NCBI GenBank assembly: GCA_963708295.1
Contig: CAVPSJ010000004.1
Location: 128,001 to 192,000 of the forward strand
Source: an uncultured delta proteobacterium
GTDB lineage: Bacteria; Desulfobacterota; BSN033; UBA1163
Reading direction: 5' to 3'
DNA: 64,000 nucleotides
In this document: one piece after another, positions 3,383 through 44,180 of the stretch
Layout: each line of letters begins with the position of its first letter
Numbering within the stretch: position 1 is the stretch's first letter
The notes under the pieces: model-generated
The model's input: only the letters and a program-made list of their open reading frames with translations
Databases searched by the model: none
Told to the model about the DNA's origin: nothing
Position numbers and translations under genes: made by a program

Positions 3383-4075
3383 ATGAAGAAACATTTTCCA
3401 TTACTCAATCTCATGCTGATTTTTGGGCTGGCGATTCTCACGCTGCTTTCGATTTGCGTGATGGACCGTTCGGCTCTTGCCCAAGGGAAGAGTGGTGGGG
3501 AGACCTTAAAATTGCCTCCTCCAAGATTCGAGAGTGAGGTATCTATTGAAAAAGCCCTGCTGGAGAGAAGGTCCATCCGGAGTTATAAGGAAGAGCCGTT
3601 AACCCTCAACGAGCTTTCTCAGATCCTCTGGGCAGCCCAGGGCATTACAGAGCCCAAGAAAGGCTTGAGGACGGCCCCTTCGCCAAGGGCGATCTATCTT
3701 TTGGAGGTTTATGTCCTTCCTGGAAATGTGATGAATCTTCCGATGGGAATCTATAAATACCAGCCCCAGGGCCATGAGCTGATCAAAATAGCGGACGGGG
3801 ACAAGAAGGCTGAATTGTTTAAAGCCGCGGGCCAAGCCCCGATCAAAAATGCGCCCGTTGCCCTGGTGATCACCGGTTTATCCGAAAAAACCCAAAACCC
3901 GGCATGGATGTATCTTGAGGCTGGCCATGCGGCAGAGAATATTTATCTGCAAGCGGTCTCGCTGAAACTGGGCACGGTTGCCATGGGAGGGTTTAAAGAG
4001 GATGAGGTGCGCAAAGTCCTGAGCCTTCCGGAAAAAGAGCGCGTGATCTATATCATGCCCATTGGAAAAAAATAG
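3383..4075 (+). CDS. SagB/ThcOx-family nitroreductase
   Basis: RRSIRSY, LWAAQGIT, RTAPS, EAGHAAENIYLQA motifs; N-terminal signal. Confidence 0.9.
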   Translation: MKKHFPLLNLMLIFGLAILTLLSICVMDRSALAQGKSGGETLKLPPPRFESEVSIEKALLERRSIRSYKEEPLTLNELSQILWAAQGITEPKKGLRTAPSPRAIYLLEVYVLPGNVMNLPMGIYKYQPQGHELIKIADGDKKAELFKAAGQAPIKNAPVALVITGLSEKTQNPAWMYLEAGHAAENIYLQAVSLKLGTVAMGGFKEDEVRKVLSLPEKERVIYIMPIGKK

Positions 4076-40557: not shown

Positions 40558-41379
40558 TTAGTTTCTCTCCATGGATTCCAATTCAAACTTAATATGCCCG
40601 ATGGGCAGTTCCAACTCCATCAGAATTGGAATCCTTCTCCCATCGGCCGTGTACCAGATCCGGATTCTTCCCTCCTTGTCTCCAAAGGTTGAAAAGGGGG
40701 TGCTGGATTCAAGGCATACCGCGTCAACTTCTCCATACATCGTTGACTGCACCCTCTCCTTTTTCGAATAAAAAACCATCTCCCGCAACTTCACCCCATC
40801 AAAGATGGACATCGAAATACTCTGCCCCGGACGAATCTCTTCTCTCAAATAACATTTGGCGAACATCGAAAGAGGGTCATATGTCTCGGATAAAAGGGGG
40901 ATCTCCTGCCTCTCCTTCTTCTCTCCCCTTTCGGCCAGCAACTTCCTATTAGGAAAATCAAACGTGAATGTTTGAAAATAATTTTTCTTCTCGACCAGAA
41001 GCCCCTCCTGGTCAATTTCTTTGACATATCGGACCGGAGAACAGGTCTCTGCTCGGACGGTTGAGAGGAATCGGTTGTTCATTCTGAATAAGAACCCAAG
41101 TGGAAGGGAACTCACGGAGGCATAAATCCGGTAAAGGGGCGTTCCCTGTTCAGAAGATCCATTTTCAATCTTAATGGAAGCCTTGAGAATGGGAACACCG
41201 AACTTCTTTGCCGTGTACAAGAAAACCTTTCCCGGCCCGGGTAGGTGTTCGGAGATTTGCTTCCGCTCATCACTCTGGACGAATCCCCCTCCTGAAACGG
41301 CTCCAAGGAAAAGAAAAATTCCGATCCCCAGCTTCCATCCGCCCTGTCTCATATCCTTCAACCCATTGGTGACTATCAT
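40558..41379 (-). CDS. DUF3108-like exported protein
   Basis: N-terminal TM helix, YDPLS, IW.TADGRRIP..ME..L.IG motifs. Confidence 0.75.
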   Translation of the reverse strand: MIVTNGLKDMRQGGWKLGIGIFLFLGAVSGGGFVQSDERKQISEHLPGPGKVFLYTAKKFGVPILKASIKIENGSSEQGTPLYRIYASVSSLPLGFLFRMNNRFLSTVRAETCSPVRYVKEIDQEGLLVEKKNYFQTFTFDFPNRKLLAERGEKKERQEIPLLSETYDPLSMFAKCYLREEIRPGQSISMSIFDGVKLREMVFYSKKERVQSTMYGEVDAVCLESSTPFSTFGDKEGRIRIWYTADGRRIPILMELELPIGHIKFELESMERN

Positions 41380-41670
41380 TATATTAAACTATCTCTTCGT
41401 CTGGATTCAAATGTTTTTTCACTTTTTTCCCCCGGTTTTGCCTGCCCTCCCCCTCCCCCCGTTTCTCCTCGCACGGATTCCTTGAAAAAGACTCTGCCAT
41501 CGATCAGGGCACAGCGGGGGCGGGTTGGAGAAGCTTTCCGGCCTGCCTGCGCCAAGGCTGAGCGGCAACCGTTTAAGCGATCTCGGAAGTGAGTCTCCGT
41601 GTTCCTTACTCAGCCTTGATTCCTGATACCGAAGACGGTCACCACGACATCCGGTGATAGCCGCATTCTT

Positions 41671-41921
41671 CTATGTTGAAAGTCAAGCCTCATTCACAAT
41701 AACAGAGCCACGCCGGTATGTTTGTTGAGACAGCACCTCCCTTTAAAATCAACCTTCTATTAGCAGACATACCTTGGGGTAGCTGCAGTATCTTCTCATA
41801 TTTTAAAGATGTGGGCTCGGAGTCTAAAGGATACAGACATCATCCTTGTGATGAGCTGTAAGAATGCGGCATCCGATGCCCACATGAGCGATTTATCGGG
41901 TCGGTTCTTGTCCCCCTATCG
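41671..41921 (-). ncRNA. Candidate bridge RNA/seekRNA region of the IS110
   Basis: Contains GCCGCATTCTTA, the reverse complement of the reconstituted target TAAGAATGCGGC, and ATAGAAG matching the element end. Confidence 0.65.
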
Positions 41922-42992
41922 TCATTCAATAACACTCGTCACGTATTCCGCCTCATTCTTCAGGACATAACGGATCCGGTTCAGCAGCTTCCTGGCGATC
42001 TTAATGATGGCCTTGGTCTTGCGCATCCTTTTACAATATTCGTTAAATGCCTCCATCATCGCCGGGTCCTTACGGACAGCAATCCAGGAGGCTTCGATCA
42101 ACAACCATCTCAGGGACGAATGTTGTCGCCGGGTCATGCCTCCTACGTGTTCTTTCTCGCCACTGCTCCGAGTATCTGGAATCAATCCCACGTAACTACA
42201 CAATTGATCAATCGAACGAAAACGGGTGACCTCATACAACTCCGTCAGCACGATCATGGCCGTCAGGGTGCTAATCCCCGGGATGGTCTTCAGCAACGAA
42301 ATCCACGAACGGTACTCTTCCGTCCGGGCCAACGCCACCACCGAGCGATTCAGCTTGGCCAGGATCTGGCGCAGGTGGCCAAGTTCTTCCAAGTGAAGCT
42401 TAAGCGCCACGTCCCCGCTGGTTCGCTCCATCCGAACCTTCTCAATCCACTGGATGAATCGTCGCGACCAATGGCCCATCTCCCTTTGCTCTGGAATGGC
42501 CACCCCATAGAAAAGAAGCATCGATTTAATCTGGTTTTTGCACCGCGCCTGTTTCCGCCCCATGCTCAGCCGAGTCCGGATCAGGCTGCGGTCCTCCAAT
42601 TTCCACCTCGGAGGGGTATAGATCCCTTCGATCTCACCCCCTCGAAGTCCCCTGGCCAATTTGCGACAATCGATCCGATCCCGTTTGCTCCTTCGCTCCT
42701 TATCTCGGGTCGGTATGTCAGCCGGGTTCGCAACGATATTGTCAATCCCCTTCTCTCTCAGTTGGTCATGGATCCAGAAACCACAATAACCCGCTTCATA
42801 GACCGAATGGTATTGACCCCCTGGAAAATGACGCTGCAGGTACTGGATCAGCACTTCTGCTTCAGGCGGTTGGCTAAACGTCTTGTACTCACCGTGTTGC
42901 GTAAAAATGCTCACACTCCAGCTCTTTTTGTGTACGTCCAGACCGAGATAAATCGCTTGACCCGAAAAATTAAGTTTGCTACGCTTGTTCAT
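41922..42992 (-). CDS. IS110 family DEDD transposase/recombinase
   Basis: GLDVHK, YEAG, KRDRIDC, TIPGIS, YVGLIP..RSSG. Confidence 0.95.
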   Translation of the reverse strand: MNKRSKLNFSGQAIYLGLDVHKKSWSVSIFTQHGEYKTFSQPPEAEVLIQYLQRHFPGGQYHSVYEAGYCGFWIHDQLREKGIDNIVANPADIPTRDKERRSKRDRIDCRKLARGLRGGEIEGIYTPPRWKLEDRSLIRTRLSMGRKQARCKNQIKSMLLFYGVAIPEQREMGHWSRRFIQWIEKVRMERTSGDVALKLHLEELGHLRQILAKLNRSVVALARTEEYRSWISLLKTIPGISTLTAMIVLTELYEVTRFRSIDQLCSYVGLIPDTRSSGEKEHVGGMTRRQHSSLRWLLIEASWIAVRKDPAMMEAFNEYCKRMRKTKAIIKIARKLLNRIRYVLKNEAEYVTSVIE

Positions 42993-43406
42993 GGCAAGTC
43001 TCTCCTTTCGGTTGGATTTTGTGGCAACGAAATTATAGCCGAAACTTTGAGACTTGCCTTTCTTTTCTTATGCCTTACCAAAAGGACAGTGCCCGTTCGG
43101 GAGTCATCCACAGCCGGATACAGGGCGGAGAGATTTTAGCCCAGCGCCCCCACGTCGCGCAGGGCGGCCCGAAGGGCAAAATCTCGAAGCTCCCCCAATA
43201 TGTCGTTAACGTCCGGCAACGGTTCATCCTCATATCCTTTCAATCATAAGGTCTAAAGGTTCGGAGACTCGCCTCTTTGTGCCGGCAGCTATTCTGTCTA
43301 GGGGGAGGCAAAACCGGCGTGGGCAAGGTTTCCTGTTGTCTTGACAGGGCAAATTCATATGTGCTACCCATGAAGACAAATTTGAAACCATCAAGGGGCC
43401 CATGCA

Positions 43407-44180
43407 ATGCGGATTGCATCTATTCAGTTGAAAGTCATCGAAGAATCAAAAGATAAATCCTTGGAACATGCTTCCCAGATGGTCCGTCAATGCCGGGGTG
43501 CAAATCTCATTCTCTTGCCAGAACTCTGGAATATCGGATTTATGAGTTTTGACCGTTACAGGGAGGAGGCCGAAACCCAAGAGGGTCAGACCTTAACCCT
43601 CCTTCGCACTTTGGCCAAAGAACTCTCCTGCCATCTTTTTACCGGAAGTCTTGTCGAAAAAAGAGGGGATCAATTTTACAATTCCAGCTTTCTCTTAAAC
43701 CCTAAAGGAGAGATCCTCGGAAGTTATCAGAAGATTCATCTGTTCACCTATCAGTCCGCGGAAGCGGAGACGTTGACTCCTGGCGCATCCGTCACGGTGA
43801 TCCCCACCGAATTCGGAAGCGTTGGATTGGCCACCTGCTATGACTTAAGATTTCCAGAATTGTTCAGGAAAATGATCAATCGAGAGGCCGAATTCTTTCT
43901 GATCGCCTCTGCCTGGCCCTTTTCTCGCCTGGAACACTGGCTTCTCCTCAATCGAACGAGAGCCCTGGAGAATCTCTCCTATCTCATCTCATCGAATTGC
44001 GTTGGAATCAACCGGGGAACCCGGTTTGCCGGCCATAGCTTGATCGTCGATCCGATGGGTGAAGTTGTAACCGGAAGCAATGAGGAGGAATGCATCGTCT
44101 GGGGAGAGGTAAATCGAGAAGTCGTTTTAAGGGCTCGGGCAGAATTTCCCGCCTTGAAGGATCGAGCCTTCAAAACCTAA
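43407..44180 (+). CDS. Carbon-nitrogen hydrolase (nitrilase/omega-amidase family)
   Basis: LPELW, YQKIHLF, CYDLRFPE, RALEN. Confidence 0.93.
   Translation: MRIASIQLKVIEESKDKSLEHASQMVRQCRGANLILLPELWNIGFMSFDRYREEAETQEGQTLTLLRTLAKELSCHLFTGSLVEKRGDQFYNSSFLLNPKGEILGSYQKIHLFTYQSAEAETLTPGASVTVIPTEFGSVGLATCYDLRFPELFRKMINREAEFFLIASAWPFSRLEHWLLLNRTRALENLSYLISSNCVGINRGTRFAGHSLIVDPMGEVVTGSNEEECIVWGEVNREVVLRARAEFPALKDRAFKT

What the first reader, a model, noticed from the sequence alone, without database searches (positions are those of the whole stretch)
41660..43075. IS110 with a readable RNA guide matching its own insertion site
Seen, in transposase orientation: left junction GGCAT-AAGAA-aagaaagg and right junction caacatag-AAGAA-TGCGGC, so the empty target is GGCATAAGAATGCGGC. 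The 251-nt downstream non-coding end contains GCCGCATTCTTA (41870-41859), an exact 12-nt complement of TAAGAATGCGGC that includes a base present only in the empty site. It also contains ATAGAAG (41760-41754), matching the donor end. Knowledge: IS110/IS1111 recombinases use bridge/seekRNAs with target- and donor-binding loops. Inference: a downstream-encoded bridge RNA with a long contiguous target guide and no obvious sub-terminal IRs, a candidate new programmable recombinase. I could not confidently place the second target guide.
Basis: partly seen in the sequence, partly recalled or inferred. Interest (0 to 1): 0.75.

Follow-up and report, generated by a model that had tools for sequence, protein, structure and literature searches.

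The report
IS1111-type insertion sequence with downstream seekRNA
This is an intact mobile element of the RNA-guided IS110/IS1111 kind whose own non-coding tail encodes the guide RNA that matches its insertion site; the mechanism has been known since 2024, so it is a new example, not a new kind.

Summary
The element is 1585 bp (window 43254..41670, minus strand), not 41660-43075. The claimed left junction at 43075 lies inside the element. A second copy in the genome and an empty paralogous site fix the true ends. The insertion site is CCTTT-AG-AATGCGGC with core AG.

The 252-nt tail after the transposase gene folds into two stem/internal-loop modules. The first carries GCCGCATTCTT (41870-41860), which complements the right target half. 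The second module carries ATAGAAG (41760-41754), which copies the right end.

Across 99 related loci the guides change together with the flanks. In 55 of 62 loci the right guide matches its flank for at least 5 nt beyond the core, over 25 guide classes. In 55 of 61 loci the left guide matches for at least 3 nt. Subterminal inverted repeats exist, with 7-bp and 3-bp extensions.

All this fits the published IS1111-type seekRNA/bridge RNA architecture, so this is a new member of a known kind. One feature is unexplained: a conserved, structured module of about 170 nt in the left end that has no Rfam match.

The parts
41670..43254 (-). Whole insertion sequence, 1585 bp, counting the left copy of the AG core
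   Evidence: Two copies in G000 are identical over window 43258..41661 apart from 1 SNP. The empty paralogous site L003 fixes the junctions.
43253..43254 (-). Core dinucleotide AG, left copy
   Evidence: AG is shared by the left junction, the right junction and the empty site. AG is the only constant between LT and LE, and between RE and RT, in relatives.
41668..41669 (-). Core dinucleotide AG, right copy
43255..43259 (-). Left target flank CCTTT, copied in the left target guide
41660..41667 (-). Right target flank AATGCGGC, complementary to the right target guide
43237..43247 (-). Left subterminal inverted repeat ATGATTGAAAG, preceded by the 7-bp extension AGACCTT
   Evidence: Read. Both arms change together in relatives (TTGAAAG / TTAAAAAG / TTTAAAAG clades).
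41673..41682 (-). Right subterminal inverted repeat CTTTCAACAT, followed by the 3-bp extension AGA
41681..41686 (-). TTGACT, -35 half of the promoter that forms only on the circle junction
   Evidence: Sequence. It lies 17 nt from TATGAT once RE, core and LE are joined. This is an inference by analogy with ISEc11 (passage).
43243..43248 (-). TATGAT, -10 half of the junction promoter
   Evidence: Sequence; inference
43066..43236 (-). Left-end module of about 170 nt (core 43097-43217). It is absent from relatives with a short LE, is a conserved multi-helix structure, and its function is unknown.
   Evidence: LE is long in 50 and short in 24 of 76 parsed. Structure. Model R1 matches 43097-43217 at 105 bits. 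No Rfam match.
42993..43058 (-). Hairpin GGCAAGTCTC (43058-43049) / GAGACTTGCC (43002-42993) that encloses the RBS and ends at the ATG. A TATAAT-like hexamer lies in its loop (43037-43032).
   Evidence: helix 7: 10 pairs, 99.8% of cells paired
41922..42992 (-). Transposase/recombinase ORF, 356 aa
   Evidence: PF01548 + PF02371. NCBIfam NF033542 'IS110 family RNA-guided transposase', 195.8 bits against a cut-off of 140.
41809..41885 (-). Target-binding module: basal stem, internal loop with both target guides, capping hairpin
   Evidence: MFE fold. Covariation in helices 1-3.
41860..41870 (-). Right target guide GCCGCATTCTT, complement of A-AG-AATGCGGC, on the 5' side of the loop
41822..41830 (-). 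Left target guide CCTTT-AG-AC, same sense as left flank + core + first 2 nt of LE, on the 3' side of the loop
   Evidence: The post-core position covaries with LE in L018 (AGTC with TCC).
41741..41808 (-). Donor-binding module: basal stem CTTTAAAAT/ATTTTAAAG, 13-nt internal loops, capping hairpin
   Evidence: (helices 4, 5)
41754..41760 (-). Donor guide ATAGA-AG, same sense as the last 5 nt of RE + core
   Evidence: In L016, L017 and L020 both this guide and the RE end read ATAAA-AG.
41790..41794 (-). Candidate second donor guide AAGAT. It would pair with LE ACCTT with one A-C mismatch; relatives have AAGGT or AAGAT.
   Evidence: Alignment A3. LE is nearly invariant, so there is no covariation test. 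Weak.
41772..41772 (-). The only difference between the two genomic copies (G here, C in the other). It falls in a pair of the capping hairpin of the donor module.

Best explanation
The feature is an intact, recently active insertion sequence of the RNA-guided IS110/IS1111 superfamily with IS1111-type architecture.

The DEDD recombinase (41922-42992) is followed by a 252-nt right end. That end encodes a seekRNA/bridge RNA of about 145 nt (41885-41741) made of two stem/internal-loop/hairpin modules.

In the first module the 5' loop strand pairs with the top strand of the target to the right of the AG core. The 3' loop strand pairs with the bottom strand to the left of the core. The two guides overlap on AG. 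Each reads 1-2 nt further into the element's own end, like a handshake guide.

The second module reads the donor: the right end plus core, and probably the first bases of the left end.

The inferred cycle is as follows. The element excises as a circle. Joining its ends creates a TTGACT-17 nt-TATGAT promoter. The recombinase-RNA complex then recombines the circle's AG with the AG of a ...CTTT-AG-AATGCGG... site. That site sits in a family of repeated intergenic elements in this genome.

Shown here: the ends, the target, the RNA-like structure, and guide/target and guide/donor covariation. Inferred from the published family: that the structure acts as RNA, that it binds the recombinase, the circle intermediate and the junction promoter.
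For: Ends and target.
- The two copies are identical from 43258 to 41661 with 1 SNP.
- The empty paralogous site is L003.
- The 13-mer CTTTAGAATGCGG occurs 13 times unoccupied in G000, against 0.15 expected by chance.

Protein. PF01548 + PF02371; NF033542 at 195.8 bits.

RNA structure.
- The single-sequence MFE fold gives exactly the two modules with the guides unpaired: -46.9 kcal/mol, z -2.65, 0 of 200 shuffles as low.
- On 65 distinct relatives there are 40 pairs in 5 helices, with 95.9% of cells paired against 39-41% when partners are slid.
- Twenty pairs have changes on both sides (shuffled mean 11.0; 0 of 500 shuffles reach it). The count is 119 such cells against a shuffled mean of 28.5.

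Guides. 99 loci were examined.
- For the right guide, 66 loci had both guide and right junction parsed. Four were dropped (2 flanks too short, 2 cores not AG), leaving 62.
- In 55 of these 62 the guide matches its own flank for at least 5 contiguous nt after the core (median 7), over 25 guide classes. Only 10 of 600 cross-class pairs reach 5.
- For the left guide, 61 loci were used (2 dropped for short flank). In 55 of 61 the match is at least 3 nt and in 50 of 61 at least 4 nt. In cross-class pairs, 36 of 870 reach 4.
- The donor guide and the RE end change together, ATAGAAG to ATAAAAG, in L016, L017 and L020.

Literature. The architecture matches the published IS1111 family (Siddiquee 2024, PMC11187229: abstract, sections 6, 9, 12 and passages). 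The shared features are:
- the non-coding region downstream of the gene;
- the top-strand match 5' of the bottom-strand match;
- subterminal repeats of 11-13 bp;
- extensions of 7 bp on the left and 3 bp on the right;
- a promoter formed at the circle junction.
Durrant 2024 (PMC11208160, passages) places the IS1111 bridge RNA in the RE.
Against: All evidence is comparative. The RNA, its ends and its binding to the protein were not observed.

- Seven of 62 loci show fewer than 5 matches to the right guide. Several are single mismatches; L012 and L014 do not match.
- Six of 61 loci show 1 match or none to the left guide, including L016 and L020.
- The second donor guide is only 5 nt, carries a mismatch in the window copy and has no covariation support.
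- No promoter-like site stands out upstream of the RNA (3 sites against 1.7 expected, none placed for it).
- The left end is 262 nt, which is atypical for IS1111-type elements ('short LE').
- The transposase is only about 30% identical to its nearest named relatives, the ISSso6 and ISEc45 families. It is 25% identical to a Klebsiella plasmid IS110-family transposase with a downstream non-coding region. Its place in the IS1111 versus IS110 tree is untested.
- Model R2 of this RNA finds nothing in those named elements.
Confidence: 0.9

Rival explanations
1. The RE structure acts as folded single-stranded DNA of the element end, recognised by the recombinase, and not as a transcribed RNA.
For: Covariation cannot tell RNA from single-stranded DNA. 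No dedicated promoter was predicted.
Against: G-U (G-T) pairs are frequent on the transposase-sense strand only, for example 19 U-G at pair 150:174 and 13 at 69:78. In the experimentally studied relatives the equivalent region is an RNA that co-purifies with the transposase and works in trans (PMC11187229).
Confidence: 0.04
2. The bridge RNA is the structured module in the long left end, as in IS110-group elements such as IS621. On this reading the RE matches are secondary.
For: The left end is 262 nt and holds a conserved structure: 63 pairs, 94% of cells paired against 35-53% when slid.
Against: The LE module shows no more complementarity to its own target than to other elements' targets: the longest shared words are 4-8 nt for own targets and 4-9 nt for others, in 32 loci. 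Of 76 parsed relatives, 24 lack the module yet keep site-specific insertion and the RE RNA. The module also occurs alone in two other genomes.
Confidence: 0.02
3. The complementarity between 41870-41860 and the right junction is chance, or only a long-range hairpin or terminator of the transposase mRNA.
For: About 0.3 perfect 11-nt inverted matches are expected somewhere in 1.6 kb (own estimate). Another 11-nt match of no known meaning exists (I12).
Against: The guide changes with the flank in 25 classes. No terminator-like site was found.
Confidence: 0.01

Closest known systems
IS1111-family elements with seekRNA (ISEc11, ISKpn4, ISPa11, ISPst6; Siddiquee et al. 2024, PMC11187229)
   Same: The element shares the following features (paper):
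- a DEDD transposase;
- a long non-coding region downstream of the gene that encodes the guide RNA;
- the top-strand-complementary segment lying 5' of the bottom-strand-complementary one, the two overlapping at the insertion point;
- subterminal repeats of about 11 bp with 7-bp left and 3-bp right extensions;
- a promoter formed at the circle junction;
- no target duplication beyond the shared core.
   Different: - Protein identity to any named element is about 30% or less.
- The left end is 262 nt because of an extra structured module.
- The subterminal repeat has a 1-nt bulge.
- My RNA model does not detect the non-coding regions of the named enterobacterial elements I fetched.
- ISEc11 itself was not fetched.
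IS621 / ISCro4 bridge RNA (IS110 group; Durrant 2024 PMC11208160; Hiraizumi 2024/2026)
   Same: It has a two-loop RNA with a target-binding and a donor-binding internal loop. Each loop strand reads a different DNA strand. There is a dinucleotide core, and guide extensions of 1-2 nt that read the recombinant junction, like handshake guides (abstract). The C-terminal domain aligns to PDB 9t56 (E 1.7e-8) and 8wt6 (E 1.7e-6).
   Different: The RNA is in the right end, not the left. The order of the guides is reversed. The subterminal repeats are long. The core is AG; that IS621 uses CT is recalled, not tested. Only the C-terminal ~120 residues align to the solved structures.
ISPpu9 of Pseudomonas putida (PMC12288879; search listing and abstract only)
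   Same: It is an IS110-family element inserted in repetitive extragenic palindromes, with a small RNA gene downstream of the transposase gene.
   Different: The host and the target differ. No separate extra copies of the RNA were found in G000: the own-genome DNA search found only the two full copies.
ISEc45 and ISSso6 families (nearest named transposases)
   Same: They are 30% identical over nearly the full length, at 122-125 bits. For ISEc45, the copies' shared extent implies a short left end and a right end of at least 150 nt, the same polarity as here.
   Different: Their transposases are 375-377 aa. They have different targets; ISEc45 sits in an IS66-family transposase gene. There is no detectable RNA similarity. 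I could not establish their ISfinder group.

Membership tests
IS110/IS1111 superfamily (RNA-guided DEDD recombinases) | Transposase with an N-terminal DEDD/RuvC-like domain (PF01548) and a C-terminal PF02371 domain | tested here: met
   PF02371 E 5.7e-22 and PF01548 E 2.4e-9, both above gathering score. NF033542 at 195.8 bits against a cut-off of 140.
IS110/IS1111 superfamily (RNA-guided DEDD recombinases) | Sequence-specific insertion with a shared core and no further target duplication | tested here: met
   Two copies sit in sites sharing CTTT-AG-AATGCGG. The empty paralogue carries the site uninterrupted.
IS1111 group/family | Subterminal inverted repeats of about 11-13 bp (7-17 bp in Durrant), with terminal extensions of 7 bp (left) and 3 bp (right) | tested here: met
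   AGACCTT + ATGATTGAAAG ... CTTTCAACAT + AGA gives 10 pairs with a 1-nt bulge. The arms covary between clades. The criterion comes and passages.
IS1111 group/family | Long non-coding region and guide RNA downstream of the transposase gene | tested here: met
   The RE is 252 nt with a covarying two-module structure.
IS1111 group/family | In the seekRNA, the segment complementary to the target top strand lies 5' of the one complementary to the bottom strand | tested here: met
   41870-41860 (complement of the top strand) precedes 41830-41822 (same sense as the top strand). The same order holds in all parsed relatives.
IS1111 group/family | C-terminal motif GL-P----S(t)G | tested here: met
   GLIPDTRSSG is in the translation, read by eye. 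ISSso6-like ORFs have GITPSEYSSG, so the motif discriminates weakly.
IS1111 group/family | Short left end | tested here: not met
   The LE is 262 nt here. Relatives without the extra module have 87-93 nt. Siddiquee notes that a few members have long non-coding regions on both sides.
IS1111 group/family | Transposase related over its full length to that of IS1111 and placed in the IS1111 clade of the tree | not tested
   No ISfinder reference set was on hand. The window protein is nearer to ISSso6/ISEc45 (122-125 bits) than to a Klebsiella plasmid element with a downstream non-coding region (67 bits). The groups of these references are not known to me.
IS1111 group/family | The RNA co-purifies with the transposase and is required for circle formation and transposition | not testable with these tools
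   This needs experiments.
IS110 group (IS621-like) | Bridge RNA encoded in the left end, with the left-target guide 5' of the right-target guide | tested here: not met
   The LE module has no excess complementarity to its own target. The guides are in the RE in the reverse order.

The most novel reading that the evidence does not exclude
The ~170-nt module in the left end (43066-43236) may be an undescribed, self-contained structured RNA. It has no Rfam match. It is present in 50 of 76 relatives' left ends and also stands alone in two other genomes.

On this reading it has been captured by, or inserts itself into, one fixed point of these elements. It sits in the leader of the transcript driven by the circle-junction promoter. 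There it would control transposase and guide-RNA output.

Together with a transposase lineage only about 30% identical to any named element, this would make the clade a distinct branch of RNA-guided recombinases with an extra regulatory RNA.
Probability: 0.3. Interest if true: 0.55.

Novelty: new member of a known kind. Interest (0 to 1): 0.33.

Why it matters
This finding does not change how IS110/IS1111 elements are understood. It is a textbook-clean natural example.

Its practical value lies in the clade around it. Transposases 64-94% identical to this one (the metagenome set) carry at least 25 different right-guide classes and 30 left-guide classes, each matched to its own flank. That is a natural reprogramming series for an IS1111-type recombinase, a group with no solved structure among my PDB matches.

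It also shows a pitfall. Because the target is conserved, two copies alone over-extend the element, and a reader without a second copy under-extends it.

The unexplained left-end module is the only part that could lead somewhere new.

Tried and rejected
Rfam. Scans of 41000-43800 at E up to 10 and of the empty site locus L003 gave nothing meaningful. Rfam has no matching family for the seekRNA, the LE module or the target repeat.

RNA evidence. The look-up of sequencing runs listed no RNA holder.

LE module as a guide. Rejected: its longest shared words with its own target are no longer than with other elements' targets.

LE module as a small ORF. A 52-aa ORF (43075-43233) exists. Frame-breaking indels between relatives at the GGG(-/C)CC position argue against coding.

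LE module as a pair of inverted DnaA boxes. The consensus of A4 contains TTATCCACA and TGTGGATAA; the DnaA-box consensus is recalled. Only 22 of 45 distinct modules have the first 9-mer, 15 of 45 the second and 8 of 45 both, and the window copy has neither. Compensatory changes keep the pairing instead (pair 70:214). This is a weak lead only. A literature search for IS1111 + 'DnaA box' found 3 unrelated papers (listing only).

Other repeats in the element. The 10-nt match of the left flank inside the ORF (I23) and the 11-nt match between 41887-41897 and 42947-42957 (I12) are treated as chance-level.

RNA homology to named elements. Model R2 found nothing in L118-L121.

Placing the transposase in the IS1111 versus IS110 tree. 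I only reached pairwise scores and the extent of ISEc45 copies. A paper search for ISSso6/ISEc45 gave no group assignment (listing only). Supplementary figures of Siddiquee 2024 (trees, target logos) and Supplementary Table 5 of Durrant 2024 could bear on this and were not seen.

Second phylum sample. The search centred on L004's genome returned the same hit contigs as the one centred on G000, so it added nothing.
Full report
WHAT IS THERE. On the minus strand the window holds a 356-aa ORF (41922-42992). It carries both Pfam domains of IS110-family transposases: PF01548, E 2.4e-9, and PF02371, E 5.7e-22. It also matches NCBIfam NF033542, 'IS110 family RNA-guided transposase', at 195.8 bits against a cut-off of 140. 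Against solved structures, only the C-terminal ~120 residues align, to ISCro4 (9t56, E 1.7e-8) and IS621 (8wt6, E 1.7e-6).

TRUE ENDS. The window's genome (G000, 4.95 Mb, 20 contigs) has a second copy on the same contig, outside the window. Laid side by side, the two copies are identical from window 43258 to 41661, apart from one base at 41772.

Both copies sit in similar sites, so part of the shared stretch is target. A third match in the genome (L003) is an uninterrupted paralogue of the window copy's flanks. It reads ...TTTCCGAACCTT-CAGA-ATGCGACTATC.... Comparison gives the occupied site as ...CCGAACCTTT-AG-[element]-AG-AATGCGGCTATC.... The element is therefore 43254..41670, 1585 bp counting one AG. 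Relatives with other flanks show that only AG is constant at both junctions. The core is a dinucleotide.

With the right left end, the features that define IS1111-type elements appear:
- Subterminal inverted repeats: ATGATTGAAAG (43247-43237) against CTTTCAACAT (41682-41673), with one bulged base.
- A 7-bp extension on the left (AGACCTT) and a 3-bp extension on the right (AGA). These are the lengths given for the family in Siddiquee 2024 (passage).
- The two arms change together between clades of relatives.
- Joining RE, core and LE would place TTGACT (41686-41681) 17 nt from TATGAT (43248-43243). This would be a promoter that exists only on the circle, as shown for ISEc11 (passage). Here this is an inference.

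THE RNA. The 252-nt right end folds, as a single sequence, into two adjacent modules of the same design: basal stem, large internal loop, GCAG/CUGC stem and a variable hairpin (-46.9 kcal/mol, z -2.65, 0 of 200 shuffles as low).

In the first module the 5' loop strand is GCCGCATTCTT (41870-41860). It is the complement of A-AG-AATGCGGC, that is, the last base of the RE, the core and the right flank. The 3' loop strand is CCTTT-AG-AC (41830-41822). It has the same sense as the left flank, the core and the first two bases of the LE.

In the second module the 3' loop strand holds ATAGA-AG (41760-41754), the same sense as the RE end plus core. The 5' loop strand holds AAGAT (41794-41790). It would pair with LE ACCTT with one mismatch. 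This last assignment is weak.

TEST BY COVARIATION. One scan of genome contigs gave 17 related loci at 51-87% protein identity. One scan of metagenome contigs gave 200 relatives, of which the best 80 were kept, at 64-94% identity. With the two copies of G000, that makes 99 loci.

Of the 99 loci, 81 had the donor-module anchor. Sixty-six had both the right guide and the right junction parsed. Four were dropped (two flanks too short, two with a core not read as AG), leaving 62.
- In 55 of 62 the reverse complement of the guide matches its own flank for at least 5 contiguous bases after the core (median 7).
- There are 25 distinct guide classes. Among 600 cross-class comparisons, 460 match 0 bases and 10 match 5 or more, and those 10 come from near-identical classes.
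- The seven misses include single mismatches (L025, L051, L066, L097), a shifted junction (L095) and two non-matching sites (L012, L014).

For the left guide, 61 loci were used (2 dropped for short flank).
- In 55 the match is at least 3 bases and in 50 at least 4 bases immediately left of the core.
- Of 870 cross-class pairs, 722 match 1 base or none.
- L016 and L020 do not match on the left.

Other covariation:
- The donor guide and the RE end change together (G to A) in L016, L017 and L020.
- In L018 the base after the core changes in both the left guide and the LE (AGTC with TCC).

The secondary structure is supported on 65 distinct sequences:
- It has 40 pairs, with 95.9% of cells paired against about 40% with slid partners.
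- Twenty pairs have compensatory changes (0 of 500 shuffles reach this).
- 119 cells have compensatory changes, against a shuffled mean of 28.5.
The 13-sequence alignment had already given 10 of 24 pairs with compensatory change.

COMPARISON WITH WHAT IS KNOWN. Siddiquee et al. 2024 (abstract, sections 6, 9, 12 and passages read) describe exactly this for the IS1111 family. The non-coding region lies downstream of the gene. The seekRNA has the top-strand-complementary match 5' of the bottom-strand one, and the two overlap in the target. This order is the reverse of IS110-type elements.

Durrant et al. 2024 (passages read) predict a bridge RNA in the RE of 93% of IS1111 elements. They characterise the group by short LE, long RE and long subterminal repeats.

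The 1-2 bases that each target guide reads beyond the core resemble the 'handshake guides' of IS621 (Hiraizumi et al. 2026, abstract only). The element therefore works like, and is built like, an IS1111-type element.

Two membership points remain open or unmet.
- The LE is long.
- The place of the transposase in the family tree was not tested. Its nearest named relatives on plasmids are the ISSso6 and ISEc45 families, at about 30% identity and 122-125 bits. A Klebsiella plasmid element with a downstream non-coding region scores only 67 bits. For ISEc45 the extent shared by copies in E. coli genomes implies a short LE and an RE of at least 150 nt, the same polarity as here. A covariance model of the seekRNA (R2) finds the window copy at 154 bits but nothing in these named elements.

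THE TARGET. The site lies in repeated intergenic sequence. A 20-mer motif built on the two occupied sites occurs 55 times with up to 3 mismatches. The exact 13-mer CTTTAGAATGCGG occurs 13 times unoccupied, against 0.15 expected. The repeats form several sub-families. One folds as a long imperfect palindrome with the site near its centre. Rfam finds nothing in the empty site locus. Targeting of repetitive extragenic palindromes by this kind of element is known (titles in the reference list; ISPpu9 abstract).

THE UNEXPLAINED PART. Of 76 left ends parsed, 24 are 87-93 nt, 50 are 260-308 nt and 2 are longer. The long forms carry an insert at one fixed point, window about 43236-43066. Elements with the same target class occur with and without it, for example L008 against L052-L056.

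The insert has a conserved multi-helix structure. On 45 distinct sequences:
- 63 pairs were tested (including the RBS hairpin), with 94% of cells paired against 35-53% when slid.
- Nine pairs have compensatory changes (5 of 500 shuffles reach this), in 22 such cells (0 of 500 reach this).
Variable hairpins are inserted at two points.

It has no Rfam match. It has no excess complementarity to the element's own target.

A model of its core (R1) finds only the two element copies in G000. In a sample of 150 other genomes of the phylum it finds three places in two genomes of one genus (one search adds only weak opposite-strand matches). None of the three places lies next to the LE start, the donor module or the RE end. 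One lies between a small ORF and a BrkB-family membrane protein gene. One lies at the end of an ORF without a Pfam match, upstream of a DctP-family gene. One is cut by a contig end.

So the module is a separate unit. I cannot say what it does.

VERDICT. This is a new, apparently active member of a known kind of RNA-guided insertion sequence, with one unexplained accessory module.

Noticed in passing
window 43066-43236 (core 43097-43217), minus strand; also L103:332-456, L104:1501-1607, L105:1501-1622: A conserved structured module of about 170 nt is inserted at a fixed point of the left end in 50 of 76 relatives. It is absent from Rfam, and solo copies occur in two genomes of another genus. 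Function unknown.
   Followed up: partly
window 43058-43049 with 43002-42993; TATAAT-like 43037-43032: A 10-bp hairpin encloses the ribosome-binding site and ends at the transposase start codon. It is invariant or U-G in 45 relatives. A -10-like hexamer lies in its loop, so transcripts starting inside the loop would escape sequestration while read-through transcripts would not.
   Followed up: partly
G000, e.g. C4:226452, C14:264651, C8:20477-20560 (L003): The insertion site belongs to several families of repeated intergenic elements: 55 motif sites and 13 exact unoccupied 13-mers. At least one family is a long imperfect palindrome flanked by GAGACTGTGTCGCAAT-like inverted ends. Their nature (REP-like, MITE or RNA gene) is unknown.
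   Followed up: partly
window 41772: This is the only difference between the two copies in the genome (G here, C in the other copy). It breaks a base pair in the capping hairpin of the donor module of the other copy.
   Followed up: no
L008 about 3817-3852: The right end plus target (CAACATAGAAGCATGACA) is present twice in tandem after the element. It could be a footprint of a second insertion/excision or a repeated target.
   Followed up: no
L013, the ~66 nt before the left junction: The 33 nt of left flank that end at the insertion point are duplicated in tandem.
   Followed up: no
L010 and L015, downstream of the transposase gene: These copies keep the start of the target module but lack the donor module and the right end. 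They are probably decayed or interrupted copies.
   Followed up: no
window 41887-41897 and 42947-42957: An 11-nt perfect complement links the bases just upstream of the seekRNA with codons about 12-15 of the transposase gene (I12). This is about chance level for 1.6 kb.
   Followed up: no
L121:704-920: ISEc45, a nearest named relative, sits in a fragment of an IS66-family transposase gene in many E. coli genomes. This is another case of an IS110-superfamily element targeting another mobile element.
   Followed up: partly
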